Assembly: GCA_011911785.1 (NCBI GenBank)
Contig: GCA_011911785.1_4084.1
DNA: 64,000 nucleotides
Direction: 5' to 3' (one strand)
Origin: a phage
A model generated the notes under the pieces. That model did no database searches and was not told where the DNA came from. It saw only the letters and a list, made by a program, of their open reading frames with translations. Shown piece by piece: positions 13,555-28,804 of this stretch (position 1 is its first letter; each line of letters begins with the position of its first letter). A program made the translations under genes and the position numbers.

Positions 13555-14724
13555 TTAAACTGGTGAATCTAATACAAATTCTAAACTACTAATGCCACCA
13601 TATGTGACATTTGTCCCTGTGCTATATACAAAATTACCATCAGTTATATAAGTTCGGTTATACCCACCTGCCATCTGCGACTTACTATAATCAAACCCAT
13701 CAGGAACGATTGCTTTGGTATATACTAATGCATTATTAGATGTACCAATACCTAACATACCAGCTTCTGAAGATTTATTGTAGCCGCAACAATATATACC
13801 ATCTGTTGTAGCAATAACTTGGTTATAATATGAAGTAATGTTAGCAATGCTTACTACATCACCGGGTGGCATTAGTGAAGCAGTTTGAACCTCAAATGCT
13901 CTATAATCACTGAGAGAACCATTTATCCCATCTGCTTGTGCACCAAATATTCTCGAACCGCCATTTGCGATGATGGTTTTACCAGTGGGATCAGTACCAA
14001 TTGCCATTGCCATTGAAGTACTATTCTCCATATAGTACTTGATATTAATTGTATTTCTTAAGCTGGTAGGAGCACCATAATATATAGTATATAACTTACC
14101 TCCTGAACTTGTAACTGCATTTACTCTTCCTGTATAAAATAGCCATCCTTGGTTTGTAACATAACCGTGCATTAAATTACTTGCAAACAATTTAACAGGT
14201 AATTGATCTGCTGCGGTCGGAACAGTACTTTTGACGAATTTTCTAGCAACATTGTTAGTTGTTGTCCCATCACCCAACTGACCATCACCCCCTGCTCCAG
14301 TACTCCATATTGTTTGGTCTGTTAGTAATACACTTGTAGTCTGATAACTAACTGCTATATCTAATATTGGTAATGTTAACGTATCGAATGTTGGCATAGC
14401 AGAAGTCCATATTGATACTGCTGCCCCTGGCATACCAACAGTTGTTGAACTTCCACTGTACCATATTTCATCATTGCTTTTCTTAATAACTATCGACGTG
14501 GCTCCCATCCAAAAATCTTGAACATCAGAAGTGCTAAAAGTCCATGTAGTAACAATATTTTTGTGACCTAAACCCAAAAGACCATTTGCATTCTCACCAC
14601 GCACATATAAATCACCACTGTTTGTTAAAACAGCAACATTATAGTTGTTAGCTAGTATTTTTTTAATATTTGGTTTAGCAGGTGCAATATTCCCATACTC
14701 TAACATTCTTACAAAAGGTAACAT
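13555..14724 (-). CDS. RCC1-like repeat protein, MLPFVRMLEYGN paralog (389 aa)
   Basis: GDGQLGDG and GLLGLGH motifs; track start 14856 rejected. Confidence 0.65.
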   Translation of the reverse strand: MLPFVRMLEYGNIAPAKPNIKKILANNYNVAVLTNSGDLYVRGENANGLLGLGHKNIVTTWTFSTSDVQDFWMGATSIVIKKSNDEIWYSGSSTTVGMPGAAVSIWTSAMPTFDTLTLPILDIAVSYQTTSVLLTDQTIWSTGAGGDGQLGDGTTTNNVARKFVKSTVPTAADQLPVKLFASNLMHGYVTNQGWLFYTGRVNAVTSSGGKLYTIYYGAPTSLRNTINIKYYMENSTSMAMAIGTDPTGKTIIANGGSRIFGAQADGINGSLSDYRAFEVQTASLMPPGDVVSIANITSYYNQVIATTDGIYCCGYNKSSEAGMLGIGTSNNALVYTKAIVPDGFDYSKSQMAGGYNRTYITDGNFVYSTGTNVTYGGISSLEFVLDSPV

Positions 14725-14757
14725 AATTCCTCCTTTATTCATTATATTATATTTAAT

Positions 14758-14789
14758 CCAAATAAGAAAGCCAGTATCAAGTACTGGCT
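14758..14789 (-). terminator. Intrinsic terminator AGCCAGTA-cttga-TACTGGCT + U-rich tract
   Basis: Read directly on minus strand. Confidence 0.6.
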
Positions 14790-14794
14790 TTAAT

Positions 14795-15943
14795 TCATTG
14801 TATAAATGACATATCAACTTCGGTATATCTTGTAGTGTACTGCCCAGAACTTCCACCCATTACTAGATTGGAAAAACCAGTATAAAATAACTTACCTTCA
14901 TCTGTGAGAATCAAACTACCGATGTTATTCAGTACTAAACTGTAAGAACTATTAAAATTAGCATAGGACTGGGTATAATAGAACTGATTTGTAAGATTAC
15001 CAACACCCAATTGTCCACCAGTGTTAACCCCAGTTGCAAATATCGTAGTACCAAATCTGCGAATATGCGAGGCCATATTGCCGACGCAACAATGTACATT
15101 CTGAACATCCGAATTCAATAAAGTTGGTGTTGTGTATTGCTTAAGTGTTGTGCCTGTACCGAATTCATTACCATATGATACCCCATACTGTGTACCACAA
15201 GCGTACAATTTATTATCATCTTTAATAAAAAATGTACTCTGATAACTTACATCGACATCTATAACATTAGTCTGTATTCTAACAACTCCAGTACTAGCAG
15301 TTTGATTGCCTGTCCCTAACTGATAGTAAGTGTTAATACCACAACCCCATAATGTATTATCTTCTTTTAGGTATATGTTACCAACAGCTTTTTTTACCGA
15401 TGATATGGCTTCAATCTTAACAAAGGCGTTAAATGAATTTGTATTTGTGCCATTACCAAAAGATGATCTGGTTGATGTGCTGTTTGTTCCGCAGCAATAT
15501 AAAGTACCATCAGTTGTTATCAAATTCACTTTAAGATCACTGTAACTACTCATGTATTTTATATCAGAAACATTAATACCACTGGATGTTATCCATGAAG
15601 TACAATCTGTCCACGTGTTATAATATGCACCTGAACCAGAAAACGCACTCGGACTTCCTGTTATAAACACTTTTCCAGTACCGTCTTCTTCATATAATTG
15701 ACAACCACTACTGTTATTTTCCAAAAGAACTCTTTTAACATTAGTTGCACTAAGAATAAATTTACTTGACGATACACCAGTCCCCGTACCCTGACTGACT
15801 GCTGCTGAAGCATACAAATTTTTAGTGTATGTATCATGAAAATACATAGCACTACCACCGGAATATATTTTAAAACGTGTACTAGGATCTGGTGGAATTG
15901 GTGCAATATTCCCATAATCTAACATTCTTACAAAAGGTAACAT
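14795..15943 (-). CDS. RCC1-like repeat protein, MLPFVRMLDYGN paralog (382 aa)
   Basis: YYQLGTGNQ and GGQLGVGN motifs; track start 16105 rejected. Confidence 0.65.
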   Translation of the reverse strand: MLPFVRMLDYGNIAPIPPDPSTRFKIYSGGSAMYFHDTYTKNLYASAAVSQGTGTGVSSSKFILSATNVKRVLLENNSSGCQLYEEDGTGKVFITGSPSAFSGSGAYYNTWTDCTSWITSSGINVSDIKYMSSYSDLKVNLITTDGTLYCCGTNSTSTRSSFGNGTNTNSFNAFVKIEAISSVKKAVGNIYLKEDNTLWGCGINTYYQLGTGNQTASTGVVRIQTNVIDVDVSYQSTFFIKDDNKLYACGTQYGVSYGNEFGTGTTLKQYTTPTLLNSDVQNVHCCVGNMASHIRRFGTTIFATGVNTGGQLGVGNLTNQFYYTQSYANFNSSYSLVLNNIGSLILTDEGKLFYTGFSNLVMGGSSGQYTTRYTEVDMSFIQ

Positions 15944-16013
15944 AATTCCTCCTTTATTCATTATATTATATTTAATCCAAATAAGAAAGCCAGTATCAAG
16001 TACTGGCATTATG

Positions 16014-17123
16014 TTATTTTGGTAAATCAATTTTAGTAAAGACTGCAACATCCTCGCTTGCACCGGGAATGGCGTAATACGTTCCAGTACTATATACATC
16101 TCCATTTTTGGTTAATATTGAAGTCAAACCATCACTAAAAAGAACATCCCTAATCTCACTAACTTCAACGGGTAATTGTAAATTTGTAGCACTATATATA
16201 GCACCAGTTTGAGAATTGTTTAATCCCAAACCACGGTTCGCCCCAACACCCTTCTGATATGTACTGGTAATTACCATTTGTGTAGCAGTATTTAATGCAG
16301 GTGAATTCGTCATAAACAACGGAGAACTATTAGGAAAAGTACTTGCAGGAACTGCACGGAATGTAGTCGTGCCTGAACTAAGAAAGTTTGGAGTTTGACC
16401 ACATACGAAATATGATGTACCATTATAGTAATTAAATGCATTACCACCAATGGCTGCATCGATTACACCAGAACTACGTAATCCCCAAGTGTTAATTTGT
16501 GTTTGGTCCCCTGTACCATGCTGCCCACTGCTATTCCATCCAGAACTATATAGCTTATTATCTAATGTAATATACATACTATCATTTGCATTAGTCATTA
16601 CTTTACGCACGTTAGTAGCACATTGAGTTAATGTGTAAATCGATGATGAGCCAATACCTAAAGAACCACGATATCCATTATCTCCTGCACCATAGAGTAC
16701 TGAACTAGTGCTAAGTACAAATATTAAACCATTTGTACATACAATATTAGCAATTTCACTCACTGGTATAGCATTGGTAAACCAATTAGTCCTTTCAACT
16801 AATATAGTACTGTAAGAAGTAGTTGTAGAAGATGAGAACCAGTACGTTTCACCCGATGTCCATATCGTATTATCATTTTTAATAATAACAAGTGTACGAC
16901 CACCCACGAAAAAATTAGAAACATCTGAACTTACTAATATCCATGAAGATACCGTGTTGTTATTACCATTTCCAGATTCACCACCTTGATTTCTACCTAT
17001 GTAATATAAATCATGTGAATCAGTCAATAAGAATTGACCTTGTGTAGAAGCACCAACTTTAATTATATTTTTAGGACCAGGTACAATATTCCCATACTCT
17101 AACATTCTAACAAAAGGTAACAT
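16014..17123 (-). CDS. RCC1-like repeat protein, MLPFVRMLEYGN paralog (369 aa)
   Basis: SGQHGTGD motif; conserved leader. Confidence 0.65.
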   Translation of the reverse strand: MLPFVRMLEYGNIVPGPKNIIKVGASTQGQFLLTDSHDLYYIGRNQGGESGNGNNNTVSSWILVSSDVSNFFVGGRTLVIIKNDNTIWTSGETYWFSSSTTTSYSTILVERTNWFTNAIPVSEIANIVCTNGLIFVLSTSSVLYGAGDNGYRGSLGIGSSSIYTLTQCATNVRKVMTNANDSMYITLDNKLYSSGWNSSGQHGTGDQTQINTWGLRSSGVIDAAIGGNAFNYYNGTSYFVCGQTPNFLSSGTTTFRAVPASTFPNSSPLFMTNSPALNTATQMVITSTYQKGVGANRGLGLNNSQTGAIYSATNLQLPVEVSEIRDVLFSDGLTSILTKNGDVYSTGTYYAIPGASEDVAVFTKIDLPK

Positions 17124-17195
17124 AATTCCTCCTTTATTCATTATACTATATTTAATACAAATAAGAAAAGCCAGTACAGAGTACTGGCTATTATA

Positions 17196-18338
17196 TTATT
17201 TCCACGGTAGAAGTGAATCAGGAACTCTGGTTGGTACTCTAACGGCTGGAACATTTCCAAGTTCAGGTAAACCACTCATATACAAATTGTTATTTTCATC
17301 AATTATCATTGAATAGAAATTATCAATTACGAAGCCTGAAATTCGTCTTCCTTCTAATGCATCAAGAACCATTTCGGTGAAAGTTAGTATATTTTCGGAT
17401 GTTTGATTAACACCACATGCACCATAGGTATTTCGACCACAAGTATATAACTTATTATTATTTTTAACAACACATCCATTCCCTTCGTTGTTGGATAAAC
17501 CACCCACCAACTCTATTTCACCTTGGAATGATAAATTGGGAATTAATGTACTCATTGGTACTGCTGATACTCTACCTACACCAGCTTGACCATATGCATT
17601 TGGTGAAGCAACCTTCACTGAACCATCATTAAGAAATATATATGAAGTACGGTATGTATTTACAGCTTGTATAGCATTGGTGATCGTATTGTCTTTTGTA
17701 AAACTTAATATATTTGATGTTGTTGTACTACCAGGAGCAACAGTATTTCCTGCATACCAATAGGAGCCATCATCAAGTACTAACCCAGTACTGAGCAAAG
17801 AACAGCCATAACTTTTAACATTTTCTATAGTGCTGTATCTGAACGATGTGACATTAGCTGTTGACGCGTTACCAAATACACCACCTTCGCCAGCACCACA
17901 GTAGAACCATTTTCCATTTTTTAAAAATACACGCAAATTCTGCCCAACAGCAATACCATCAATATCATCAGCACTGACACCAAAATCAGTGAAGTACTGG
18001 GTTACATCAATCCAAACCCCATTTGTATTTGTTCCGATTTGTGGCATTACTATACTAGCACCTGTGAACCAAATAGTTCCATCATTCTTAATGGCAATGG
18101 AACCAAGAACACCACCCCAGTAACGTTCAATATTATTATTCACACGGGTCCATACGGTGGATGATTGTAATGAACCATTACCACCTTGTCCAAATGAAGA
18201 TGAACCATACCAGTACAAGTCACCATTAACATGCAAATAAAAACGAGTATTATAATTTGCTTGTAATCTATTTTTAAATAGAGGTTTTGGTTCTGGTGCT
18301 TCATTTCCATACTCTAACATTCTAGCAAAAGGTAACAT
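17196..18338 (-). CDS. RCC1-like repeat protein, MLPFARMLEYGN paralog (380 aa)
   Basis: YGQAGVGR motif; close paralog of 18412-19554. Confidence 0.65.
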   Translation of the reverse strand: MLPFARMLEYGNEAPEPKPLFKNRLQANYNTRFYLHVNGDLYWYGSSSFGQGGNGSLQSSTVWTRVNNNIERYWGGVLGSIAIKNDGTIWFTGASIVMPQIGTNTNGVWIDVTQYFTDFGVSADDIDGIAVGQNLRVFLKNGKWFYCGAGEGGVFGNASTANVTSFRYSTIENVKSYGCSLLSTGLVLDDGSYWYAGNTVAPGSTTTSNILSFTKDNTITNAIQAVNTYRTSYIFLNDGSVKVASPNAYGQAGVGRVSAVPMSTLIPNLSFQGEIELVGGLSNNEGNGCVVKNNNKLYTCGRNTYGACGVNQTSENILTFTEMVLDALEGRRISGFVIDNFYSMIIDENNNLYMSGLPELGNVPAVRVPTRVPDSLLPWK

Positions 18339-18411
18339 AATTTCCTCCTTTATTCATTATACTATATTTAATACAAATAAGAAAAGCCAGTACAGAGTAC
18401 TGGCTATTATA

Positions 18412-19554
18412 TTATTTCCACGGTAGAAGTGAATCAGGAACCCTTGTCGGTACATTTGTAGTAGACACCCCATCAAGATTTGGTACACCGCATGTATATA
18501 AATTATCAGCATCGTCAACTAACATCGTATAGTTATATCCCCTACAAAAACTACTAACATTACGACCTTCTAATGCAGTAAGAATCATTTCAGTGAATGT
18601 TGTTATATTTGTCGAGGTTGAACCAACACCACATTGTCCATTTGAATTAAGACCACATAAAAATAACTTATTATCATTTTTAATTATACAGGATGGTCCA
18701 GTAAGGTTTGTACCAAGCTCACCCACTAACTCTATTTCACCTTGGAATGCTAAATTTGGAATTAATGTACTCATAGGGGCTGGTGTTGTATTCCCAGTAC
18801 CTGCTTGACCACGTTCGTTGGAAGATGCAACTTTAACTGTTCCATCACTAAGAAATATATAGGAAGTTTCAATTGTATTGACTGCTTTAATTGCAGTGCT
18901 GATAGAAGTTTCTTGTGTAAATCTTAGCACGTTTTGTGCTGACGTTCCCGATATAAACGTATTACCTGCATACCAATATGTACCATCATTGAGTACTAAT
19001 GCAGTACTTCGAATTGCACAACCAGCACTTCGAACATTTTCTATAGTACTGTACGTGAATTGTGAAACGCTTGCCGATGAACCATTTCCGAATACACCAC
19101 CACTCCCAGCACCACAGAAGAACCACTTTCCATTTTTCAAAAATACACGCATACACGCAGATATAACAATACTATCAATATCATCAGCACTGACACCGAA
19201 ATCAGCAAAGTGCGATGTCACATCAACCCAAACACCGTTAGTGTTTGATGCAATTACTGGAATAACAGAACTTGTACCAGTGTACCAAATAGTACCATCT
19301 TTCTTTATCGCTATTGTTCCTTGAACACCACCCCAATATCGTACAACATTTGTATTGACGAGAGTCCATGCGGTTGAAGAGTTCAATGAACCATTACCAC
19401 CTTGACCATATGATGAAGAACCAAACCAATATAGATTACCATTGGTGTGTAAATAAAATTTGGCATCTGCCGAGCATTGTAACCTATTTTTTAATCGTGG
19501 TGCGGGTTCCGGTGCAATATTCCCGTACTCTAACATTCTTGCAAAAGGTAACAT
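18412..19554 (-). CDS. RCC1-like repeat protein, MLPFARMLEYGN paralog (380 aa)
   Basis: RGQAGTGN motif; RBS directly follows upstream stop, no terminator. Confidence 0.65.
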   Translation of the reverse strand: MLPFARMLEYGNIAPEPAPRLKNRLQCSADAKFYLHTNGNLYWFGSSSYGQGGNGSLNSSTAWTLVNTNVVRYWGGVQGTIAIKKDGTIWYTGTSSVIPVIASNTNGVWVDVTSHFADFGVSADDIDSIVISACMRVFLKNGKWFFCGAGSGGVFGNGSSASVSQFTYSTIENVRSAGCAIRSTALVLNDGTYWYAGNTFISGTSAQNVLRFTQETSISTAIKAVNTIETSYIFLSDGTVKVASSNERGQAGTGNTTPAPMSTLIPNLAFQGEIELVGELGTNLTGPSCIIKNDNKLFLCGLNSNGQCGVGSTSTNITTFTEMILTALEGRNVSSFCRGYNYTMLVDDADNLYTCGVPNLDGVSTTNVPTRVPDSLLPWK

Positions 19555-19566
19555 AATTCCTCCATA

Positions 19567-20463
19567 TTATTTAAAAACATACTGCGTATTAACACGAGTG
19601 CCATTGTCAAAACCAAGTACATAAAATATCTCAGCACTATTCTTAGAACCAAATAACGCACCAGTACTACTACTCAAAGTAGTATTAACCGCTAAGGGAA
19701 TCCATATGTCTTCTTCTGCATCGTATCTCAATAAATTTAATGCACCATACGACACTGCATATATATTTTTATCATATGTACTGTAACATATTTTACTAGG
19801 GTTATTACCACCAACTGGTGCTATGTTAGACCACACCGCACTTTGTATATGATATTTTTGTGCAGTACTAGTACCTTGACCAGTAATATATATGTAAGTA
19901 CCATCCGTACACATATCACCACCTCCATTGTTATTTGTTCCATCACTTGTACCTAATGATGACCATGTATTAGTACTTGGAGTATAACTGTATAACGAAT
20001 TATTAGTAGGCGAACCCCACAAATATATCTTATCCCCAGCAGTAATCATCTTACTATACGCCAGTTGACTAGGCTTCCCAATACTGTTAGTGTTCAGAAT
20101 CCATGTATTTGTACTTATATTATATACATAAAAATTATTACTACTATTACCTGAACCACCAAACAAATATATTTTTCCCTGATAAGCACATAACGCACTA
20201 CCAAATGTAGATACAGGTGCATTGGCTAATTGTGACCACGTTCTTGTAGTTAAATTAAAACTCCATAACTGATTATCCGTCTGCACCGCATTCTGTATAC
20301 CACCAAATATATAAGCAATATTACTTTCCGCATCATACGTATAACCAAAGTTATTTCGTGCTGAAGGTACTGGTGTTGTAGTAAATTGTGTTCGTACTCC
20401 ACCATTTGGGCCAGGTAATGGACCTACATTCCCGAACTCAAACATTCTAACAAAAGGTAACAT
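19567..20463 (-). CDS. Kelch/beta-propeller-like repeat protein with N-terminus MLPFVRMFEFGN (298 aa); first gene of the array
   Basis: Repeated YIFGG / IYLFGG / IYLWG motifs; conserved leader. Confidence 0.6.
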   Translation of the reverse strand: MLPFVRMFEFGNVGPLPGPNGGVRTQFTTTPVPSARNNFGYTYDAESNIAYIFGGIQNAVQTDNQLWSFNLTTRTWSQLANAPVSTFGSALCAYQGKIYLFGGSGNSSNNFYVYNISTNTWILNTNSIGKPSQLAYSKMITAGDKIYLWGSPTNNSLYSYTPSTNTWSSLGTSDGTNNNGGGDMCTDGTYIYITGQGTSTAQKYHIQSAVWSNIAPVGGNNPSKICYSTYDKNIYAVSYGALNLLRYDAEEDIWIPLAVNTTLSSSTGALFGSKNSAEIFYVLGFDNGTRVNTQYVFK

Positions 20464-20511
20464 AATTCCTCCTTTATTCATTATACTATATTTAATCAAA
20501 AAAGAAAACCC

Positions 20512-20540
20512 TTGACACCCTTTCAGTACTGATGTACTAT
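20512..20540 (+). promoter_or_regulatory. Sigma70-type promoter TTGACA-17-TACTAT for the F3 array, in a divergent region
   Basis: Read directly; RBS TAAGGAG follows. Confidence 0.55.
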
Positions 20541-20565
20541 ATGAGAAATCTAAGGAGAATCGTAC

Positions 20566-20793
20566 ATGCCATATGCTCTAAAGTACTACATCAATGAACT
20601 AAATGAACTAGAGTACGCAAAGGTTCTCTCTGACCAATCGTGGCTAATTGAACTAAAAAATCATAAGAGCACAGGGTGTAACCTTATGCTTGGTAGTGCA
20701 CTGAATACCCTTACTGTGAGCATTGTACACAATACACTATTAGGGGATACCCGTAAACAATTTTTAAACATCTTAGTACTAGTGGCTATATGA
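20566..20793 (+). CDS. F3 family small protein (75 aa)
   Basis: First gene after promoter. Confidence 0.5.
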   Translation: MPYALKYYINELNELEYAKVLSDQSWLIELKNHKSTGCNLMLGSALNTLTVSIVHNTLLGDTRKQFLNILVLVAI

Positions 20794-20990
20794 ACATTAA
20801 CCCGTACTACATCAATGCATTGCACCCTGGGCTACAAGATGCAATGAAGAACCAAAAAACAGTACTGAAAAATGCTAAACGCATACCAGGACTCCTGAAC
20901 TCAAACAGGAATAACCTCATATGGAATGCAATAGAAGGTAACGAAAGTATGCAGTACTATTTCATCTTAACACTACTATTGGAGTACTAA
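20790..20990 (+). CDS. F3 family small protein (66 aa)
   Basis: N-term PYYINAL, C-term YYFILTLLLEY; start/stop overlap. Confidence 0.5.
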   Translation: MNINPYYINALHPGLQDAMKNQKTVLKNAKRIPGLLNSNRNNLIWNAIEGNESMQYYFILTLLLEY

Positions 20991-20991
20991 T

Positions 20992-21201
20992 ATGAATACT
21001 GAACATAAAGAATTCTACACCAAATACCTCAGCAACGAAGAACAAATGTTTCTAAGGAGTGTACCACCTGTAAGTATAGACACACCCAACACAAGGAATT
21101 GCTTTAATAATTGTATACGTAGTACTCTAGAAGCTATTGAATGCAATAACAAAAATATGCAGTACTCAAGTTTAATCGGACTAATATACTTCTATGAATA
21201 A
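20992..21201 (+). CDS. F3 family small protein (69 aa)
   Basis: N-term HKEFYTKYL, C-term LIYFYE. Confidence 0.5.
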   Translation: MNTEHKEFYTKYLSNEEQMFLRSVPPVSIDTPNTRNCFNNCIRSTLEAIECNNKNMQYSSLIGLIYFYE

Positions 21202-21385
21202 TCATAAAGATTTCTACTGTAGTAAACTACACGAACAATACAGGGACTCATTCCCTCAAGAACCTATGAGAAAGAATAGTCCCTTTTATAATTACGATTT
21301 CAGGTTGGAGACACGTTATGCAATAGAACAACCATTTACTTCAACTAAGTACCGCTCTATCCTGAACCTCATCTTTAAGTTCTAA
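21194..21385 (+). CDS. F3 family small protein (63 aa)
   Basis: N-term HKDFY, C-term LNLIFKF. Confidence 0.5.
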   Translation: MNNHKDFYCSKLHEQYRDSFPQEPMRKNSPFYNYDFRLETRYAIEQPFTSTKYRSILNLIFKF

Positions 21386-21396
21386 AAAGGTACTAT

Positions 21397-21609
21397 ATGA
21401 AAACTACAAACATTCATCAGTACTACATAGATATTCTCCCTAAAGATATACAGTTCATACTTAAACAAGAATTCAGTACTTTTTAAAAACTTAAAAGAAC
21501 CGCACCGAATGTACTCATCCAGCACCAAAAAAATGTCGTGCGTAATATTCTACAAGGTGCAACAGGGACCGAGTACTTTAATATAGTAAGGCTAATTACA
21601 TTACAATGA
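21397..21609 (+). pseudogene. F3 family member interrupted by in-frame TAA at 21484-21486
   Basis: Reading frame continues in the same frame after the stop and ends ..EYFNIVRLITLQ with family-like C-terminus. Confidence 0.45.
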
Positions 21610-21791
21610 ATCATATAAGCTACTATTACCAAAAACTATCCGACAGAGACAAGTACAGCCACAACTCCCATGTGTGGTACTACAAACGCGGCAGTATAAG
21701 AGACAAACAACATTACTTCTGTACTGCTATAAAAGAAACACTAACAACTAAGTACACGTACAGAGCAGTACTTAAACTTATTGAAATGTAG
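21606..21791 (+). CDS. F3 family small protein (61 aa)
   Basis: ATGA overlap; C-term LKLIEM. Confidence 0.5.
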   Translation: MNHISYYYQKLSDRDKYSHNSHVWYYKRGSIRDKQHYFCTAIKETLTTKYTYRAVLKLIEM

Positions 21792-21799
21792 AGAATACA

Positions 21800-21979
21800 A
21801 TGCTAGAATACTACCTAAGCGTAATTTACCCAGAAGATAGATACGGCTTCAATTACTTCTCAATGAGCTATCATTGTAGTTCGCAAAGAAAACAAAGAAA
21901 ATTACTCCTGAATTGTACTAAATTGGCACAGGACGAAATGTTCACATATAATGAAGTACTGAAACTAATCTCTATATAA
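21800..21979 (+). CDS. F3 family small protein (59 aa), not in ORF track
   Basis: Hand-translated MLEYYLSVIY..LKLISI. Confidence 0.4.
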   Translation: MLEYYLSVIYPEDRYGFNYFSMSYHCSSQRKQRKLLLNCTKLAQDEMFTYNEVLKLISI

Positions 21980-21989
21980 GGAATAAACT

Positions 21990-22169
21990 ATGCTAGAGTA
22001 CTACACCGATAATCTCAGTACTAAGGATCGTTTCATGTACGACACCTTCGTGAAGTACTACAACATAGGAACAAAAAGTACTAAAACTATTAATCTCAAT
22101 AGCTGCATTCATCACGTCCTGACAAAAAATAACCCATACAGAGAAATAATCTCGCTTGTAACAGTATAA
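21990..22169 (+). CDS. F3 family small protein (59 aa), not in ORF track
   Basis: Hand-translated MLEYYTDNL..ISLVTV. Confidence 0.4.
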   Translation: MLEYYTDNLSTKDRFMYDTFVKYYNIGTKSTKTINLNSCIHHVLTKNNPYREIISLVTV

Positions 22170-22197
22170 GCAGTATAAGCAATTTAAGGAGACTAAA

Positions 22198-22869
22198 ATG
22201 AAACTCAATCCACAAAGCAAACGATACCTACAGCACTTTAAGTACCTACAATCAATCCAGGCTGAATCTACCACTAATGCATATACTTATCATCCTAATG
22301 TACTAAAGAACCTAAAGAAAAGTAAAAAAACCAGTACAAATGGAGTTAACGTATCAAAGAACCTTGAATTGTACATGAAGAAAAATAATATAGCTGTTCA
22401 TTATATGAATATCTATAATACTGATTTAAAAGTATTGAGTACTAATACGAGCATGAAGGTACTAAAGAACGCATCCTTCATCATCCATATGCAGTTGGAT
22501 AATACCCCGTGCACTTTAATGCTATACTTCGGGAATACATACTTCTTCGGGAATTGTAACACCTCCCACGATGTCAATACAGCACAATTCCAAATGGGTG
22601 GCATATACAGTATGGGTTCAGAAGAAATACACGATAACATGCATTTCTTCCAACAGCAACGTACAGAAGAAACTAAATCAATTGTAGAATTCCTCAAAGA
22701 ACTACAAGGCAAAGAATTATCAGAAGAAGAACTATTCATGTACAGTACTGTAATCGATAATCCTGTACTGTACAAAAACGCGTACAATCTTACAAAACAT
22801 GTACAGGAACTTATCAGTACTAATAAGAAAATTCATCACCTCATTACATATATTACAAACTATGCATAA
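22198..22869 (+). CDS. F2-like protein (223 aa) sitting inside the F3 array
   Basis: Motif SEEELFMYSTVID matches F2 signature; RBS AAGGAG. Confidence 0.5.
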   Translation: MKLNPQSKRYLQHFKYLQSIQAESTTNAYTYHPNVLKNLKKSKKTSTNGVNVSKNLELYMKKNNIAVHYMNIYNTDLKVLSTNTSMKVLKNASFIIHMQLDNTPCTLMLYFGNTYFFGNCNTSHDVNTAQFQMGGIYSMGSEEIHDNMHFFQQQRTEETKSIVEFLKELQGKELSEEELFMYSTVIDNPVLYKNAYNLTKHVQELISTNKKIHHLITYITNYA

Positions 22870-23044
22870 AGAATACTACGTAAGTAAACTTACAATAGAT
22901 CTCCAAAAACTTATTCCCCAAAAACCTGTAGATTTCAAAGATAAAAGCCAAACTATATTCTACCGATATCAAACAGAATCTGCAATAAATGAAGATGATA
23001 TCTATAACCTGTACAATGTACTAACACTTATATACAGGTACTAA
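22862..23044 (+). CDS. F3 family small protein (60 aa)
   Basis: MHKEYYVSKL; track start 22799 rejected. Confidence 0.5.
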   Translation: MHKEYYVSKLTIDLQKLIPQKPVDFKDKSQTIFYRYQTESAINEDDIYNLYNVLTLIYRY

Positions 23045-23045
23045 T

Positions 23046-23234
23046 ATGCACAAAGAATACTACACAAAATATTTCCCAATGTACCTCAGAACTAATCTAT
23101 TAGATAAACCTCGCGGTATCAATGCACAAAACGATAAAAAGTACTTTACTATGTGCACTAAAGCATGTATACAAGATTATGATAGCTATCATCGAGTACT
23201 GTACCACACCCTGTACCTCGCATTCGTGTACTAA
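23046..23234 (+). CDS. F3 family small protein (62 aa)
   Basis: MHKEYYTKYF..LYLAFVY. Confidence 0.5.
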   Translation: MHKEYYTKYFPMYLRTNLLDKPRGINAQNDKKYFTMCTKACIQDYDSYHRVLYHTLYLAFVY

Positions 23235-23243
23235 GGAAATCAT

Positions 23244-23444
23244 ATGCATAAAGAACACTACATAAAAGAACTACCAAAGTTTCTACAAGGCAATCTATTA
23301 GATGATGAACCTCGCGACATTAACTGTATATACGAAGCTGATTACTTCCGTACATGTACTGAACAAGTACTTAATGAAGAAGTTAATGAAAACAATTCTC
23401 AAGTGCAACTGTACCACACTCTGTATCTCGCGTTCCAGTACTAA
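23244..23444 (+). CDS. F3 family small protein (66 aa)
   Basis: MHKEHYIKEL..LYLAFQY. Confidence 0.5.
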   Translation: MHKEHYIKELPKFLQGNLLDDEPRDINCIYEADYFRTCTEQVLNEEVNENNSQVQLYHTLYLAFQY

Positions 23445-23452
23445 GGACTAAT

Positions 23453-23635
23453 ATGTATAAAGAATTTTATAAAGATCATCTCCCAATGCATCTCCAACAC
23501 CATGTGCCAACAAAACCATTGGGCATAAAAGATCATGCAAAAATAATGTTCCAACAATGTACTAAGTACACCCTAATATACGATGACAATCCATATATGC
23601 TGTACTACATAACAATGCTAATATTCAGGTACTAA
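23453..23635 (+). CDS. F3 family small protein (60 aa)
   Basis: MYKEFYKDHL..MLIFRY. Confidence 0.5.
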   Translation: MYKEFYKDHLPMHLQHHVPTKPLGIKDHAKIMFQQCTKYTLIYDDNPYMLYYITMLIFRY

Positions 23636-23637
23636 TC

Positions 23638-23838
23638 ATGTATAAAGAATACTATATGAGTAAACTATCAAGCACCGAAAGAATCTGGTGCGGAGCCGCC
23701 GCCCCCGTTAATCCAAAAAGTGCATACGCAAAAATGTGCTTTAGGAAAGCTACAACGAACTCAATTGAAGCTCTAGAACAAGATGACACTAAAGCACTAT
23801 ACTCTAACCTAATGTTGCTAGTATATATCTATGGATAA
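23638..23838 (+). CDS. F3 family small protein (66 aa)
   Basis: MYKEYYMSKL..LLVYIYG. Confidence 0.5.
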   Translation: MYKEYYMSKLSSTERIWCGAAAPVNPKSAYAKMCFRKATTNSIEALEQDDTKALYSNLMLLVYIYG

Positions 23839-24022
23839 TTATAAAGAATACTATAAACAATTTGTTAAAGAGAACTACAAAGATGCCGTCCCCGTAATCC
23901 CTTTAAATTCCCATGACCCAAGTTCTATATTCTTGTTTAAGGACGCAATACGTACAGTACTCAATACTAAAGATGAACAGGTGCAGTACGTATTCTTACT
24001 ATTACTTATATACAGACACTAA
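23831..24022 (+). CDS. F3 family small protein (63 aa)
   Basis: MDNYKEYYKQF..LLLIYRH. Confidence 0.5.
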   Translation: MDNYKEYYKQFVKENYKDAVPVIPLNSHDPSSIFLFKDAIRTVLNTKDEQVQYVFLLLLIYRH

Positions 24023-24023
24023 T

Positions 24024-24221
24024 ATGAATGACCATAAAGAATTCTATATAAGTAAACTCAAAGAGAATGAACAAGTATGGATTAACGCTCTAATCCCTCT
24101 ACCAATGACTCGATATGAATTTAATAAATGTACTAATATAGCAATAGACCCTTCTCCTGTTCTAGAGAATGTACAGTACAATCAGTACTACTATATCTTA
24201 ATGCTTATATATAGGAAGTAA
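24024..24221 (+). CDS. F3 family small protein (65 aa)
   Basis: MNDHKEFYISKL..MLIYRK; track start 23913 rejected. Confidence 0.5.
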   Translation: MNDHKEFYISKLKENEQVWINALIPLPMTRYEFNKCTNIAIDPSPVLENVQYNQYYYILMLIYRK

Positions 24222-24339
24222 TTAAACACATATAGCTAGGGGAAGCTCCGTAGTGCAAGCATTATACAGGCTTTAACATATGTTGCATATGTTAAAATTC
24301 AGCCTGGACAAATGCGATCACTAGGATTCTCCCCAGGCT

Positions 24340-24400
24340 AAACCCCGTAATCATAGGTAGTCATAAGTAATCATATATAAACATTTAAGTAATCATTTAT
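24340..24400. repeat. Cluster of direct 8-mer repeats GTAATCAT (4-5 copies)
   Basis: Read directly in non-coding region. Confidence 0.6.
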
Positions 24401-24613
24401 AATCATTGCAGTGAAGAGTATTGAGTACTGTTTCCCCTATATGATTCAGTACTGATATCCCACTAAGTAGGCAAATGAAGTCGCCCAAAATTTACATAAT
24501 TTTACAGTACTGAACAATTGCAAAACAAATCATTTCCAATCAAAAGTAATCACGGAATGACCAGTACTGAAAACTCCCAATCACCTATTCAAAAAAGTTC
24601 AATTTACCCTTTG

Positions 24614-24656
24614 TCAAAAATCCCGAATACCCATTGGGGAAAATTCCGAATACCCC
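24614..24656. repeat. Direct repeat AAAAT(C/T)CCGAATACCC, 2 copies
   Basis: Read directly. Confidence 0.6.
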
Positions 24657-24851
24657 TTGAGGCTCCAGCAAAAAGTTGGTTAGTACTCCATTGTAAATCT
24701 GGATCGTAAAAATTTTGGAGTACCTATGAAATAAAAGTTGGATCTTCGAAAGTTGAAATTTACATTGGGACATATAGGATTAGTGGGATATAATGAGTTT
24801 TGAAGAGATACAGAAGATATGTTTTCAGTACTGAATAATGAAAGAAATCTA

Positions 24852-24879
24852 TTGACATTATGATTCAGTACTGTATAAT
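24852..24879 (+). promoter_or_regulatory. Orphan sigma70 promoter TTGACA-16-TGTATAAT (extended -10)
   Basis: No CDS within 1.2 kb downstream. Confidence 0.5.
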
Positions 24880-25280
24880 GTTCTACATAGAGTGATGGAT
24901 TGCCGCAAACAATTCAGAGCCTTAACCCTCCTGTCGTGAGACAGTACAGAAGAGATTGAATCCTCCTATGCAGTGGTTCATCTTTGACAACCTCTTTTTT
25001 CGTAATATAAACAGTACTGTTATTAACAGAATGGTAGCAGTACTGATATTAATCTAATATAATGTTACCATGCAATGTGGTGAATTTCCCTTAACAGTAT
25101 TCAGTACTACATGATAGTCTTCATCCTCCTAGGGTAACATAGTGAGGGCTATTGTGGCAGTACTGAATACTCCTTTCACAAGATAGATCTATGGTATAGT
25201 ACTGACGGATTTTGGGCGTAGTAACCCTGGGTGGATTTTGGACGTAGAGATGCCTAGCCCTCCAGAAGTCTGGAAGTAAA

Positions 25281-25409
25281 GATGGCTATCCCTCTAGACG
25301 GCTGGATGGCTAGATTTCTAGATGGCTGTACTGCTAGACGTTTGGACGGCTAAACGGCTAAACGGCTAAACGGCTAGATGGTTAAACGTCTGGATGTATA
25401 GACGGCTAA
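25281..25409. repeat. Iteron-like array of 8-bp direct repeats (AAACGGCT x3 tandem plus about 8 degenerate copies), followed by an AT-rich tract
   Basis: GGCTAAACGGCTAAACGGCTAAACGGCTAGATGG and flanking variants read directly. Confidence 0.7.
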
Positions 25410-25566
25410 ATCAAAATTTTTATTTTGTTTTTTCCAATAGTTCCCCTACCGCGTGGGGATGGTTTCCCCGCAGTATCTGGAGTTAGATTTTTCTGAATCT
25501 GGAATCATTATCTAATAAACTGGGGGCAATGTCAACCGCCTGGATGAATATTTTTAAAAATAATCT

Positions 25567-25646
25567 AGTACTGAATTTTGGGCGTAACTATGCACCCGGT
25601 GGGCTAGAGTCTTTCTCGACTTGATGAAATAATTATAGCAGTACTG
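25567..25646. repeat. ~80-bp repeat element (copy 1) containing GCACCCGGTGGGC and TAATTATA, flanked by AGTACTG
   Basis: Related copies at 25786-25868 and 29147-29230. Confidence 0.55.
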
Positions 25647-25785
25647 AATGATAAAAGCAATAGCCTAAGTGTAAAAAGTTTTAATTAATTTGCTTGCCAT
25701 CCTGGGGCGTACTATGGTACTATGATTCAGTACTGAGAAAGTGCTTTTACCTGCTAGGGTGCGGGAGTGTATCCTTTTTAAATTT

Positions 25786-25868
25786 ACTGAATTTTGGGCG
25801 TAGTTCCGCACCCCCTGGGGTATCCGCTTTCTCGCGTCTATGTAGTAATTATACGCTTTTTTAGTACT
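25786..25868. repeat. ~80-bp repeat element (copy 2)
   Basis: Aligns with 25567-25646. Confidence 0.5.
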
Positions 25869-26077
25869 GAGTCAATAGCTAAAAACAAAATAATTGAAAA
25901 TAATTTAACGCGTTTAAATGGCCCGTAAAGCCCTGGATTGTTGGGAGTGGTGCAAATGTATAGCTTAGGTGTATTAATGCGTTAGAATGCGTATGAGGCC
26001 GTTTTAAGGGTATAGTACTGAATAATAGTACTCCTATATAGAAAGAAAACTATTTTAAAAAGTATTTGTAGAAAGTA

Positions 26078-26106
26078 CTTGCAAAGTATTGGGAAAGGTG
26101 TAGAAT
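26078..26106 (+). promoter_or_regulatory. Type-B early promoter CTTGCA-17-TAGAAT; 5' stem-loop at 26120-26138
   Basis: A-rich upstream tract; hairpin AGCGGGAA-cac-TTCCCGCT in the leader. Confidence 0.55.
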
Positions 26107-26161
26107 GTTTTACATCGAGAGCGGGAACACTTCCCGCTACACTTTAAGAGAGATTAAAACG

Positions 26162-26524
26162 ATGGCTACTCAAATCAATAAAATTATTGCTAACCTGGTT
26201 AACTTCCGCGAAGAGATGAAAGGTCTTCCGGCTGAAACTGTAAAGATTCACATTTCAGCTTATCGGGAATTGATTGCGATGTTACCGCTTAAGCGTGAAC
26301 AATACGCCGCTACCGTGATGCTTGATGCGATGATCCACAAGATGATTGCCAGTGATTTAACGATGGCTTATCAGTACATGGGCGAAATGTTTGCGGTGTA
26401 TAGTAAACCAGTACCAGGGATGGAAAGTACCGAAGTATTGCACGGTTTAAACTTAAAACAAGATGCATGGGATAATATGCCTCGTTTCCTGGTATGGGCT
26501 GACAGTGGCAAGATTTACGAATAA
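26162..26524 (+). CDS. Hypothetical small early protein (120 aa)
   Basis: Start moved downstream of leader hairpin; RBS AAGAGAG. Confidence 0.5.
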   Translation: MATQINKIIANLVNFREEMKGLPAETVKIHISAYRELIAMLPLKREQYAATVMLDAMIHKMIASDLTMAYQYMGEMFAVYSKPVPGMESTEVLHGLNLKQDAWDNMPRFLVWADSGKIYE

Positions 26525-26537
26525 GTTTTAAAAAGTA

Positions 26538-26566
26538 CTTGCAAACTAAGTTTAAAAGCGTATAAT
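26538..26566 (+). promoter_or_regulatory. Type-B early promoter AAAAAGTACTTGCA-17-TATAAT; 5' stem-loop at 26579-26597
   Basis: Read directly; hairpin GTGGGGA-atagt-TCCCCAC. Confidence 0.6.
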
Positions 26567-26618
26567 ACTTTCTATCAGGTGGGGAATAGTTCCCCACTAC
26601 AAATAAGAGAATTTAAAA

Positions 26619-26858
26619 ATGGCTACTACTAAAACTTTCAACGGTCACAAAAACAAAACTCAATGGAATGTAAGCCTTTGGATTAATAACGATGAGTCAT
26701 TGTATCGTCTGGCGAAAGAATTTATCGACGCTAATACTAATCGTAATGATGCGGCCCGTCATATGATGCTATTTTTAGAACAAATTGGACAAGATAAAAC
26801 ACCGGACGGATTCAAGTATAGCACTACTGCGATCCGTGCTGCAATGGTTGGCATGTAA
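26619..26858 (+). CDS. Hypothetical small early protein (79 aa)
   Basis: Own promoter cassette; start ATGGCT. Confidence 0.55.
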   Translation: MATTKTFNGHKNKTQWNVSLWINNDESLYRLAKEFIDANTNRNDAARHMMLFLEQIGQDKTPDGFKYSTTAIRAAMVGM

Positions 26859-26939
26859 GAGAATAGATTAAAAGTACTATTGCACGGTGATAGTACTTTA
26901 TAATAGATTTCTTTTATACATCAACGATGGGGTAACAGC

Positions 26940-27206
26940 ATGAATATTATATACTTTGCAACGCGTGAACTAGCTCGGATTGCAGCACGCCAGGACGGGG
27001 CGACGTTTAAAGATATGGGTGTACAATCGGAACGTGGTAAACGTTGGGCCGTAGTAAAGCAAAGTACAGCCCGATCAATTCAGTACTGGTTAGCGGCGTT
27101 AAAAAGTCCTGATAGTGTATCGCGTCGAGTAGTAGAAATAAAGCACGACCGCAAGGGCAACCGTGTTACTGTGTACAGTACTAAAAAGATTGCAGTACTT
27201 GAATAA
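26940..27206 (+). CDS. Hypothetical small early protein (88 aa); paralog of 38093-38488
   Basis: Shared FYATRE..FKDMG..HDRKGNRVTVYS. Confidence 0.55.
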   Translation: MNIIYFATRELARIAARQDGATFKDMGVQSERGKRWAVVKQSTARSIQYWLAALKSPDSVSRRVVEIKHDRKGNRVTVYSTKKIAVLE

Positions 27207-27211
27207 AAGTA

Positions 27212-27240
27212 CTTGCATACTAAGTTTAAAAGCGTATAAT
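27212..27240 (+). promoter_or_regulatory. Type-B early promoter CTTGCA-17-TATAAT; 5' stem-loop at 27253-27271
   Basis: Read directly. Confidence 0.6.
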
Positions 27241-27292
27241 ACTTTATATCAGGTGGGGAATACTTCCCCACTACAATGAAGAGGATTTTAAA

Positions 27293-27523
27293 ATGGCTAT
27301 CATGTATATGACCGAAGTTAAAACCGTAAAAGATACTACCACTAATAAAACTACTTACTTACAGCGGGTATGCGGTGTATGGCAACGTATTAGTAAAGCA
27401 AAGTACTTTAAATTAACATCATATGCTAATCGTTCGGATTCATTCAGTACTGAAATAAAAGGTAATAAATTACACCAATACGGCACTTATTATTATTATA
27501 GCCTGGACGCGATTGCAGTCTAA
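27293..27523 (+). CDS. Hypothetical small early protein (76 aa)
   Basis: RBS GAGGA; promoter cassette. Confidence 0.55.
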   Translation: MAIMYMTEVKTVKDTTTNKTTYLQRVCGVWQRISKAKYFKLTSYANRSDSFSTEIKGNKLHQYGTYYYYSLDAIAV

Positions 27524-27807
27524 GCAGTTTACAAATCTTTACAATTGCCGGTATTGACTTATTTTGTCAGTACTGGCATAATGTATCTATTGAAACGAAC
27601 AATTTGGCCCACGGGGTGCGGGAGTGTATCTATAGAAAAAGTAGTTTAGTACAGTTACAATTGTGCACCCGGTGGGTTAGCTGTTGTCATGGGGTATATT
27701 ATACCAGTACTTGATAATGCTGTCAATACTTTTTTTTACTATTCAGTACTGAAAACTATTTTTAAAAAGTACTTGCAAACTATGTTTAAAGGCGTATAAT
27801 GTTTTAC

Positions 27808-27883
27808 ATCAGGACGGGGAACGAAATAAGTAACTCCCCGTTAAGTAGCCCAGGAGTAAGGCATACGAAAAACTCCCCTGATA
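27808..27883 (+). other. Conserved ~76-nt structured leader element between tandem promoters (candidate small RNA or 5' leader)
   Basis: Second copy at 36895-36970; internal hairpin ACGGGGA..TCCCCGT; outer ATCAGG/CCTGAT; no start codon inside. Confidence 0.35.
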
Positions 27884-27889
27884 AAATAG

Positions 27890-27917
27890 TTTGACAATTG
27901 TTTTTAAAAGCGTATAA
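27890..27917 (+). promoter_or_regulatory. Early promoter TTGACA-16-TATAAT; 5' stem-loop at 27930-27953
   Basis: Read directly. Confidence 0.6.
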
Positions 27918-27973
27918 TACTTTACATCGAGGCGGGGGAATGATTCTCCCGCCTATAACCAGGAGTAAGCATC

Positions 27974-28207
27974 ATGATCGAACAAATCAAAACTACTACA
28001 AGCCGGACTGGAACGAAAGTACATTGCATCGCTGATAACGAAAAAGGCGTACCCTATTGTGCTGTACACGTAAACACAGATGGCGACTATTGGTTAACTG
28101 TATATGGGAGTTATTCGTTTGCTCGACCTGCTCATAGTAAGATCCTGGACGTAGTGAAGCCTACCGGAAAGGATATCACGGTAGAAAAATATTTTACTAA
28201 GCACTAA
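27974..28207 (+). CDS. Hypothetical small early protein (77 aa)
   Basis: RBS AGGAG. Confidence 0.55.
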   Translation: MIEQIKTTTSRTGTKVHCIADNEKGVPYCAVHVNTDGDYWLTVYGSYSFARPAHSKILDVVKPTGKDITVEKYFTKH

Positions 28208-28295
28208 AAAGTACTTGCATACTAAGTTTAAACGAGTATAATACTTTATATCGAGGCGGGGGAATGGTTCCCCTGCATTTACAGAGGATTATCTA

Positions 28296-28583
28296 ATGAG
28301 CAAAGTAATTGACTATAAAGTGTTAACCAAATCATTTTCTATCAGCCAGTGCACCGATGGTTATTGGCTTTATGATGAAACACGCGGCATGAATTTAGCT
28401 ATGCGGGAGAAAACTGCTGAGGCGGCGTATGTGCAAGCCCTGGAATACTACCAGAAACGTTTAAAGGAAGTAGAAGAGGATTATAAAAGCCTCAAAGAGA
28501 AAGTAGATAATTTCGTCGGTCAATTCGTTGACGATGACGAGGAAGACGGGTACTACTGCAACCGCTGCGGATCTTACAATTAA
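28296..28583 (+). CDS. Hypothetical small early protein (95 aa)
   Basis: RBS GAGGA; C-terminal CNRCG. Confidence 0.55.
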   Translation: MSKVIDYKVLTKSFSISQCTDGYWLYDETRGMNLAMREKTAEAAYVQALEYYQKRLKEVEEDYKSLKEKVDNFVGQFVDDDEEDGYYCNRCGSYN

Positions 28584-28600
28584 GTACTGAGGATTATCTA

Positions 28601-28804
28601 ATGAGTGATTTAATCGACCGTATCAAAGAGCTTGAAGAAAAAGAATTGCAGTTAATCGGCTTACAAAATAAAATCTTTCATGATTTGGGGAGTTTTATCA
28701 ATGCCTGGGATAGTGGCGATCCTGCTGCGTTACCTGCTAACCGCGAGGCGATGATCAATGATGTGCGTGGTGTCTTTGAGTATGTTTTAAAGCAATTAAA
28801 TTAA
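28601..28804 (+). CDS. Hypothetical small early protein (67 aa)
   Basis: Same RBS context GAGGATTATCTAATGAG as upstream gene. Confidence 0.55.
   Translation: MSDLIDRIKELEEKELQLIGLQNKIFHDLGSFINAWDSGDPAALPANREAMINDVRGVFEYVLKQLN

What the first reader, a model, noticed from the sequence alone, without database searches (positions are those of the whole stretch)
21397..21609. F3 member with an in-frame TAA stop codon
The ORF starting at 21397 hits TAA at 21484-21486 after 29 codons, in the run AGTACTTTTTAAAAAC. The same frame then continues for 40 codons and ends with a family-like C-terminus (..EYFNIVRLITLQ) overlapping the next gene start. This is a nonsense pseudogene, a sequencing error in a homopolymer, or a readthrough site.
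Basis: seen in the sequence. Interest (0 to 1): 0.4.

Follow-up and report, generated by a model that had tools for sequence, protein, structure and literature searches.

The report
Nonsense-mutated small gene in jumbo phage
One copy in a row of about fifteen tiny, related genes of an E. coli jumbo phage carries a single-base change that turns a lysine codon into a stop, and because relatives have lost the same gene in other ways it is most likely an ordinary young pseudogene.

Summary
The ORF at 21397 stops at TAA 21484-21486 after 29 codons. The same frame stays open for 40 more codons to TGA 21607-21609, which overlaps the next gene's ATG.

The window comes from an Asteriusvirus-type E. coli jumbo phage, 96% identical to phage A4. 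The ORF is a divergent member of a tandem array of 59-75 aa paralogs of unknown function (related to phrog_11711) found only in this phage group.

Intact orthologs read TTT AAA AAA or TTA AAA AAA at this spot. The window reads TTT TAA AAA, so the stop is one A>T substitution (Lys30 to stop), not a change in run length.

- It is the only clean in-frame stop among 133 A4 genes matched in the window.
- TAA is the genome's main terminator (75 of 110 genes).
- No suppressor tRNA was found, the stop is not conserved, and no RNA structure follows it.
- An independent assembly of run SRR9693738 carries the same TAA.
- Relatives lost the same gene independently through frameshifts at the same A-run and a shared 5' deletion.

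Verdict: a recent loss-of-function mutation in a dispensable gene. A base-calling error is a minor alternative, and readthrough is unsupported. Interest is low.

The parts
21397..21486 (+). Truncated reading frame: ATG, 29 sense codons, premature TAA
   Evidence: It aligns to profile positions 2-22 of the paralog family.
21484..21486 (+). Premature stop codon TAA (codon 30). Orthologs have AAA (Lys) here, so this is one A>T substitution at 21484.
   Evidence: DNA alignments with A4, G17, slurp01, fEgEco12 and others. The locally closest intact allele (SRR2034070 contig) reads ACTTTTAAAAAACTT against the window's ACTTTTTAAAAACTT.
21480..21489 (+). T5A5 tract. The homologous tract varies across the genus: T3A7, T4A6, T3A6CC and T3A5GCC are intact; T3A7CC and T3A5CC are frameshifted.
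21487..21609 (+). Untranslated remainder of the gene: 40 still-open codons plus TGA. It encodes what would be helices 3-4 and the conserved C-terminal Y..L.LI motif.
21606..21791 (+). Downstream paralog (61 aa). Its ATG overlaps the old stop (ATGA) and it has only a weak, distant SD-like AAGG, so it has probably lost translational coupling.
   Evidence: Sequence context. The loss of coupling is an inference.
20566..24221 (+). Tandem array of 15 small paralogous genes (59-75 aa), interrupted by one unrelated 223-aa gene at 22198-22869. The interrupted ORF is the fifth unit.
   Evidence: phrog_11711 matches five of the nine family members tested.
20512..20540 (+). Sigma-70-like promoter candidate (TTGACA-17-TACTAT) in front of the first array gene
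   Evidence: This is a consensus match only, and the number of such matches in the region is not above the shuffle expectation.

Best explanation
The window belongs to an Asteriusvirus-like E. coli jumbo phage. ORF 21397-21609 is one unit of a tandem array of small (about 60-70 aa), predicted all-helical proteins of unknown function that occur only in this phage group. In this phage's lineage, one A>T transversion at 21484 changed Lys30 (AAA) to TAA. Translation should therefore end after 29 residues, in the middle of predicted helix 2. That removes helices 3-4 and the most conserved C-terminal motif, so the gene is inactivated.

The event is recent, because nothing else in the frame has decayed. 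It is tolerated because the gene is dispensable: most sequenced relatives lack an intact copy. Ribosomes now stop 120 nt before the next gene's ATG instead of on it, so translation of the downstream paralog may fall.

Shown: the substitution, its derived state, family membership, and independent losses in relatives. Inferred: loss of function, the polar effect on the next gene, and that the change is biological rather than a base-call error.
For: 1. The stop and the open frame after it are confirmed.
2. Identity of the phage: 96% to phage A4 and 81-86% to 35 other Asteriusvirus records.
3. The ancestral state is AAA. The gene is intact in A4, G17, slurp01, UB, Sharanji, fEgEco12, EC.P1, ph0011, Ecwhy_1, BF17, vB_Ec-M-J, Turkey3 and WPEC5, and in contigs from ERZ14213548, SRR2034070 and ERR3531130. 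Tract length is unchanged, so the change is a substitution.
4. Family membership: leave-one-out HMM E=3.5e-5 across the stop, and the invariant M1, Y10 and L66 are kept.
5. Sequence quality: of 133 A4 CDS with a match in the window, 117 are cleanly intact and this is the only clean in-frame stop. The single-base or 2-nt indels I inspected lie in doubtful ORFs or upstream of the real start; the remaining flagged genes have paired indels or only partial matches in diverged stretches, and I did not inspect all of them.
6. A Logan assembly of SRR9693738 is 100% identical over 20473-24869, including the TAA.
7. Dispensability, from independent events: a +1 frameshift at the same A-run in ECO103, EC22.5-2 and TH47; a -1 there in CMSTMSU; a -1 elsewhere in WPEC3; and a 5' deletion with one shared junction in 121Q, PBECO4 and SD-1_S14, whose alignment pattern is shared by 15 of 34 records.
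8. Across seven arrays (about 127 family units), the only disrupted units are orthologs of this gene.
9. The AlphaFold2 model of the intact ortholog has four helices (6-12, 16-35, 37-52, 59-68; pLDDT 78), and residue 30 lies in helix 2.
10. TAA is a normal terminator here: 75 of 110 genes end in TAA, 17 of them in TAAA as at this site.
Against: No reads were available. Other window proteins are found only in SRR9693738, so the matching Logan contig is probably an independent assembly of the same data rather than independent sequencing. The change sits exactly at a T-run/A-run boundary, where some platforms miscall bases. Apart from the stop, the frame shows no further decay, which a sequencing error would also produce. 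No expression data exist for this gene in any relative, so 'non-functional' is an inference. A 29-aa peptide could in principle keep some activity.
Confidence: 0.82

Rival explanations
1. Base-calling or consensus error: the true sequence is T4A6 (TTT AAA AAA) as in A4, and the boundary base between the two runs was miscalled as T.
For: The site is a T5/A5 junction. The closest intact alleles differ only at this base in the local 25 nt. The rest of the frame is undamaged. The only other record with this allele comes from what appears to be the same sample.
Against: Two different assemblies give the same base. The window is otherwise clean relative to A4: 117 of 133 matched CDS are intact and there is no other clean nonsense codon. 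The single-base or 2-nt indels I inspected are in doubtful ORFs or non-coding leaders. Tract length is unchanged, so the usual homopolymer-length error does not apply. Real disruptions of the same gene occur in several independently sequenced relatives, two of them SPAdes assemblies with 580x and 935x coverage in their record titles.
Confidence: 0.1
2. Programmed readthrough or recoding: the TAA is decoded as a sense codon, by a suppressor tRNA or a stimulatory context, to yield the full 70-aa protein.
For: The frame stays open for 40 codons and ends exactly at the family-typical position overlapping the next start.
Against: The stop is absent from every ortholog examined, so nothing is conserved. 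TAA terminates 75 of 110 genes in the window, 17 with the same TAAA context. The window has no tRNA gene. The tRNA sets reported for the relatives fEgEco12 and Sharanji contain no suppressor (PMC13070987; PMC11895373). No other gene carries an in-frame TAA. The RNA downstream folds no better than shuffles (z=-0.97). Slippage by +1 or -1 on the T5 run leads into frames that do not encode the family sequence (frames shown for orthologs; my reading).
Confidence: 0.02
3. Selected loss or on/off switching. This is a special case of the best explanation, not exclusive of it. Inactivation of this particular paralog is advantageous on some hosts, for example as escape from a host defence that senses the protein, or the T/A tract acts as a mutable switch. 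That would explain why the same gene is knocked out repeatedly.
For: There are at least five different inactivating events in this one ortholog: a nonsense change, +1 and -1 frameshifts at the same tract, a -1 elsewhere, and a deletion. About 120 other family units in seven arrays show no disruption. Other array genes also carry A6-A7 runs yet stay intact, and the gene's own second A7 run at 21527 keeps its length in the relatives I compared, so mutability alone does not explain the pattern.
Against: Relaxed constraint on a redundant paralog predicts the same pattern. The genomes in the seven-array comparison were partly chosen with this gene's state already known. Runs of 5-7 bases are short for contingency loci. 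No host or defence data exist. Paralogs lost by clean deletion would leave no trace, which biases the comparison.
Confidence: 0.1

Closest known systems
Tandem multigene families of large viruses that evolve by gene birth and death and include truncated members (for example the ASFV MGF families and poxvirus terminal gene families); stated from general knowledge
   Same: It is an array of short, fast-diverging paralogs. Copy number differs between close relatives: 15 family units in the window, 17 in A4, 19 in slurp01 and 21 in EC.P1. Occasional members are truncated or deleted.
   Different: This is a bacteriophage family of about 60-aa predicted helical proteins with no known function. No experimental link to host range or immune evasion exists.
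phrog_11711 (PHROGs family, unknown function)
   Same: Five of the nine family members from the window that were tested match it at E 1e-13 to 4e-27. Size is the same (62-position profile), and the matching genes lie in the same array.
   Different: The repaired ORF itself does not match at E<=0.01. It joins the family only through a profile built from the window's own paralogs.
Streisinger-type mutation hot spots at short A/T runs in phage genes (T4 rIIB and lysozyme frameshift hot spots); stated from general knowledge
   Same: Relatives carry +1 and -1 changes in the A6/A7 run at exactly this spot.
   Different: The window's lesion is a base substitution at the run boundary, not a slippage indel.
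Programmed stop-codon readthrough (Q-beta A1 protein, retroviral gag-pol) and stop-codon reassignment in phages (TAG or TGA recoding in crAss-like and Lak phages); stated from general knowledge
   Same: An in-frame stop is followed by an open, homologous reading frame.
   Different: The stop is not conserved. It is TAA, the main terminator of this genome. There is no suppressor tRNA, no stimulatory structure, and no other gene is affected.

Membership tests
   A leave-one-out HMM of 10 window paralogs gives E=3.5e-5 (Z=253), aligned over profile positions 2-63 of 66 and across the stop. The N-terminal and C-terminal halves contribute 10.3 and 8.2 bits.
   No PHROG hit at E<=0.01 for the repaired 70-aa sequence, whereas five neighbouring paralogs hit at 1e-13 to 4e-27. 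The ORF is a divergent subfamily member.
   Alignment A2 has invariant M1, Y10 and L66, and the ORF is the fifth unit of the array.
Nonsense pseudogene | Orthologs with a sense codon at the site, and the stop is the derived state | tested here: met
   AAA (Lys) is present at the homologous codon in the intact alleles read at DNA level (listed). In all, 13 phage genomes and 3 contigs encode an intact protein with Lys at this position. TAA occurs only in the window and SRR9693738.
Nonsense pseudogene | The gene is dispensable | tested here: met
   Relatives show independent frameshifts and a clade-wide deletion.
Nonsense pseudogene | No full-length product is made | not testable with these tools
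   This needs proteomics or ribosome profiling of infected cells.
Homopolymer-length sequencing artefact | Run length differs from orthologs and causes a frameshift | tested here: not met
   The tract is 10 nt in the window (T5A5) and in the intact alleles (T4A6, T3A7). The frame is preserved.
Programmed stop-codon readthrough | The stop codon is conserved in orthologs | tested here: not met
   None of the orthologs examined has a stop at this codon.
Programmed stop-codon readthrough | A stimulatory RNA structure or context lies downstream | tested here: not met
   The MFE of 21478-21570 is -14.7 kcal/mol, z=-0.97 against shuffles. The TAAA context is also used by 17 normal gene ends.
Stop-codon reassignment (alternative code) | Many genes are interrupted by the same stop, which is avoided as a terminator, and a suppressor tRNA is present | tested here: not met
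   Only 1 of 133 matched genes has a clean in-frame stop. TAA ends 75 of 110 genes. The window has no tRNA, and no suppressor is reported in relatives.

The most novel reading that the evidence does not exclude
The repeated, mechanistically different knock-outs of this one paralog across the genus are not neutral decay. They would reflect selection for loss, for example escape from a host defence system triggered by this small early protein, or a mutable on/off tract. The knock-outs are the nonsense change here, +1 and -1 frameshifts at the same T/A tract, a -1 elsewhere, and a clade-wide deletion. About 120 sister units in seven arrays stay intact.
Probability: 0.1. Interest if true: 0.5.

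Novelty: new member of a known kind. Interest (0 to 1): 0.12.

Why it matters
The main consequence is for annotation. The locus should be marked as a disrupted gene or pseudogene, not as a 29-aa ORF or a recoding site. It also shows that this paralog is dispensable in Asteriusvirus phages. There is a modest wider point: the array of tiny genus-restricted genes turns over quickly, and this one member is lost again and again. That makes it a cheap candidate for testing whether such small early genes interact with host defences. Nothing here challenges current understanding.

Tried and rejected
- Pfam scan of the repaired ORF and nine neighbours: no hit above noise.
- PHROGs: the family is phrog_11711 with unknown function, and the ORF itself did not hit.
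- Rfam gathering scan of the whole window: nothing.
- tRNA scan: none.
- Foldseek of the AlphaFold2 model against PDB: best E=4. Against BFVD: only its own ortholog. No functional lead.
- Exact-pattern scans of viral contigs and genome contigs for the tract: no match.
- Exact-protein look-up of the downstream 61-aa gene: not on record.
- Literature search for SRR9693738: nothing, so the sequencing platform stays unknown.
- Literature search for AGTACT with jumbo phages: none of the 15 listed papers contained AGTACT.
- Profile searches of 5.8 billion and 1.84 billion proteins: 47 proteins and 31 cluster representatives. Lengths are 51-98 aa in the first search and 41-69 aa in the second. Every hit that carries a source name is from E. 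coli or Salmonella jumbo phages, or in one case an E. coli assembly. No remote homolog with a known function was found.
- Ribosomal slippage on the T5 run as a rescue: rejected, because both the +1 and -1 frames leave the family frame (my reading).
- A mutation hot spot alone as the explanation for the recurrent loss: weakened, because other array genes carry A6-A7 runs and stay intact.

Full report
**What is there**

Reading 21397-21609 on the + strand gives ATG, 29 sense codons, TAA at 21484-21486, 40 more sense codons and TGA at 21607-21609. The TAA is the last T of a T5 run (21480-21484) plus the first two A of an A5 run (21485-21489). It lies directly after an AGTACT hexamer. The final TGA overlaps the ATG of the next gene (21606) as ATGA.

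**Genomic setting**

The window is from an Asteriusvirus-type E. coli jumbo phage. Region 20500-24300 is 96% identical to Escherichia phage A4 (ON286972) and 81-86% identical to 35 other records, including 121Q, PBECO4, slurp01 and G17.

On the + strand, 20566-24221 holds a head-to-tail array of small genes. Most are joined by overlapping or abutting stop/start codons, and a sigma-70-like promoter candidate lies in front at 20512-20540. An iterative profile search inside the window collects 13 units, and a 15-sequence alignment shows the shared pattern M..KEYY..L...P....F..CT...L....Y..L.LI..Y.

- Five of the nine tested units match phrog_11711 (unknown function), and none has a Pfam domain.
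- Profile searches of 5.8 billion and 1.84 billion proteins find only 47 proteins and 31 cluster representatives. Nearly all are 59-77 aa. Every hit that carries a source name is from E. coli or Salmonella jumbo phages, or in one case an E. coli assembly.
- The family is therefore restricted to this phage group, with no known function.

**Is the interrupted ORF a family member?**

Yes, but a divergent one. The published PHROG profile does not reach E<=0.01. The invariant M1, Y10 and L66 are present.

An AlphaFold2 model of the intact A4 ortholog, built with the family alignment, gives four helices (6-12, 16-35, 37-52, 59-68; mean pLDDT 78). Codon 30 is in the middle of helix 2. The 29-residue product would lack half the fold and the best-conserved C-terminal helix. 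Fold searches gave no informative match.

**Nature of the lesion**

DNA alignments with orthologs show the following at the homologous tract:

| Allele | Sequence | Phages or contigs | State |
|---|---|---|---|
| T4A6 | ACT TTT AAA AAA CTA or CTT | A4, ENA contig from ERZ14213548, SRR2034070 contig | intact |
| T3A7 | ACT TTA AAA AAA CTA | G17, slurp01, UB, Sharanji | intact |
| T5A5 | ACT TTT TAA AAA CTT | window | stop |

The tract is 10 nt in all three alleles, so this is one A>T transversion at 21484 that converts Lys30 to a stop. It is not a homopolymer length change. Every other ortholog examined has a sense codon there, so TAA is the derived state.

**Is the sequence trustworthy?**

I compared all 149 annotated A4 CDS from the homologous 69 kb with the window.

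- 133 have a match and 117 are cleanly intact. The ORF under study is the only one with a clean in-frame stop.
- I inspected five of the six flagged frameshift cases. Two lie in a conserved non-coding leader (ATGGTTCYCCC...) that A4's annotation wrongly includes before the real RBS and ATG. One lies in a doubtful 38-codon ORF. Two are paired indels in diverged stretches that leave the protein readable. The remaining flagged genes have paired indels or only partial matches, and I did not inspect them.
- A Logan assembly contig of run SRR9693738 is 100% identical to 20473-24869 and contains the TAA.
- Other window proteins are also found only in that run. It is probably the same sample, which makes this an independent assembly but not independent sequencing.
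- No paper mentions the run, so the platform is unknown. A miscall at the run boundary stays possible, and I put it at about 10%.

**Readthrough and recoding**

- TAA ends 75 of 110 confidently placed genes in the window, 17 of them with the same TAAA context.
- No tRNA gene lies in the window.
- The tRNA sets published for fEgEco12 (Ser x2, Met, Asn, Thr x2) and Sharanji (Thr, Asn, Met, Arg, Gly, Ser x2) contain no suppressor.
- The RNA after the stop folds no better than shuffled sequence (z=-0.97).
- The stop is not conserved in any ortholog.
- Slipping +1 or -1 on the T5 run leads into frames that do not encode the family sequence.

Readthrough is therefore unsupported.

**The gene is dispensable**

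Among the 34 phage records that match this locus:

- The gene is intact in 13 that I checked.
- ECO103 4-12-1, EC22.5-2 and TH47 have one extra A in the same A-run (T3A7CC against the intact T3A6CC), which gives KKP*.
- CMSTMSU has one A fewer, plus a second -1.
- WPEC3 has a -1 in GGGACC.
- 121Q, PBECO4 and Salmonella phage SD-1_S14 share one deletion junction (TTCTAAAAGGTAC|ACCAGGGACC). It removes the 5' three quarters of the gene and sits at an AAGGT(A/G)C microhomology. Twelve further records show the same two-piece alignment pattern.

Scanning seven complete arrays with the family profile, with stops read as X, found about 127 units. The only disrupted ones are orthologs of this gene. Other array genes also contain A6-A7 runs yet are intact. 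So the recurrent loss says more about this gene's low or negative value than about mutability. Array copy number also varies between phages, from 15 to 21 units, which is typical birth-and-death evolution.

**Mechanistic consequences (inferred)**

Translation ends at codon 30, so the 29-aa fragment is most likely inactive. Several array genes lack a Shine-Dalgarno sequence and start on or next to the preceding stop. Gene 21606 has only a weak AAGG 14 nt upstream. Termination 120 nt earlier probably lowers its translation. The 121Q-type deletion shows that gene can sit about 50 nt from the preceding stop, so the effect is not lethal.

**Verdict**

This is an ordinary, young nonsense pseudogene (confidence about 0.8) in a fluid, genus-restricted array of tiny phage genes. 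A base-call error is the main alternative. Programmed readthrough is very unlikely. The only mildly interesting point is that this same paralog is knocked out repeatedly across the genus. That could be neutral loss of a redundant copy or, less likely, selected loss.

Noticed in passing
window 1-64000, densest 24000-44000; for example 21475-21480 next to the stop, and 24866-24873 inside a promoter-like site: The palindrome AGTACT (extended form CAGTACTG) occurs 267 times against about 48 expected under an order-2 Markov model. It is the only over-represented palindromic hexamer (5.6x; the next best is 1.46x). In + strand genes it falls in all three codon frames about equally. Sites are better conserved than background hexamers: 94% against 82% versus A4 (p=2e-6), and 64-77% against 40-49% versus 121Q-like phages. 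It looks like a selected DNA-level motif of unknown function. None of the 15 papers listed by the literature search contained AGTACT.
   Followed up: partly
window about 24222-26160: A roughly 2-kb stretch has no annotated gene in phage A4 (A4 4139-6138). It holds many CAGTACTG copies, a perfect sigma-70 consensus (TTGACA-16-TATAAT at 24852-24879) and short GGCTAAAC/GGCTAGAT tandem repeats near 25270-25410. Rfam finds nothing there.
   Followed up: no
window 26000-44000, for example 28264-28275, 32883-32895 and 43737-43748: Many small genes are preceded by a conserved ATGGTTCYCCC element that the A4 annotation reads as the start codon (MVP/MVLP...). In two cases, 1-2 nt indels between the window and A4 fall just after this element and upstream of a clear RBS and ATG. 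The element is therefore probably non-coding, possibly a regulatory or leader sequence, and the annotated starts are wrong.
   Followed up: partly
L004, L014 and L015 (phages ECO103 4-12-1, EC22.5-2 and TH47), orthologous tract: Three records from two clearly different genomes share a +1 frameshift (ACTTTAAAAAAACCTT) at the same site. The downstream family frame is still open in all three. The A7 run could allow low-level transcriptional or ribosomal slippage.
   Followed up: partly
window 9619-20499, minus strand: There are nine tandem paralogous genes of 310-472 aa: eight RCC1/beta-propeller-like genes plus one kelch-like gene. Their N-termini are similar (MLPFARMLEYGN in the two listed 380-aa copies, MLPFVRMFEFGN within the kelch-like one). 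An approximately 85-nt segment is repeated at eight places. The A4 annotation calls these genes 'putative DNA condensation protein'.
   Followed up: no
window 21800-22169 versus A4 1337-1894, and A4 3546-3734: Copy number differs even between these 96%-identical phages. A4 has three copies of the 59-aa subfamily where the window has two. A4_259 has no counterpart in the window.
   Followed up: partly
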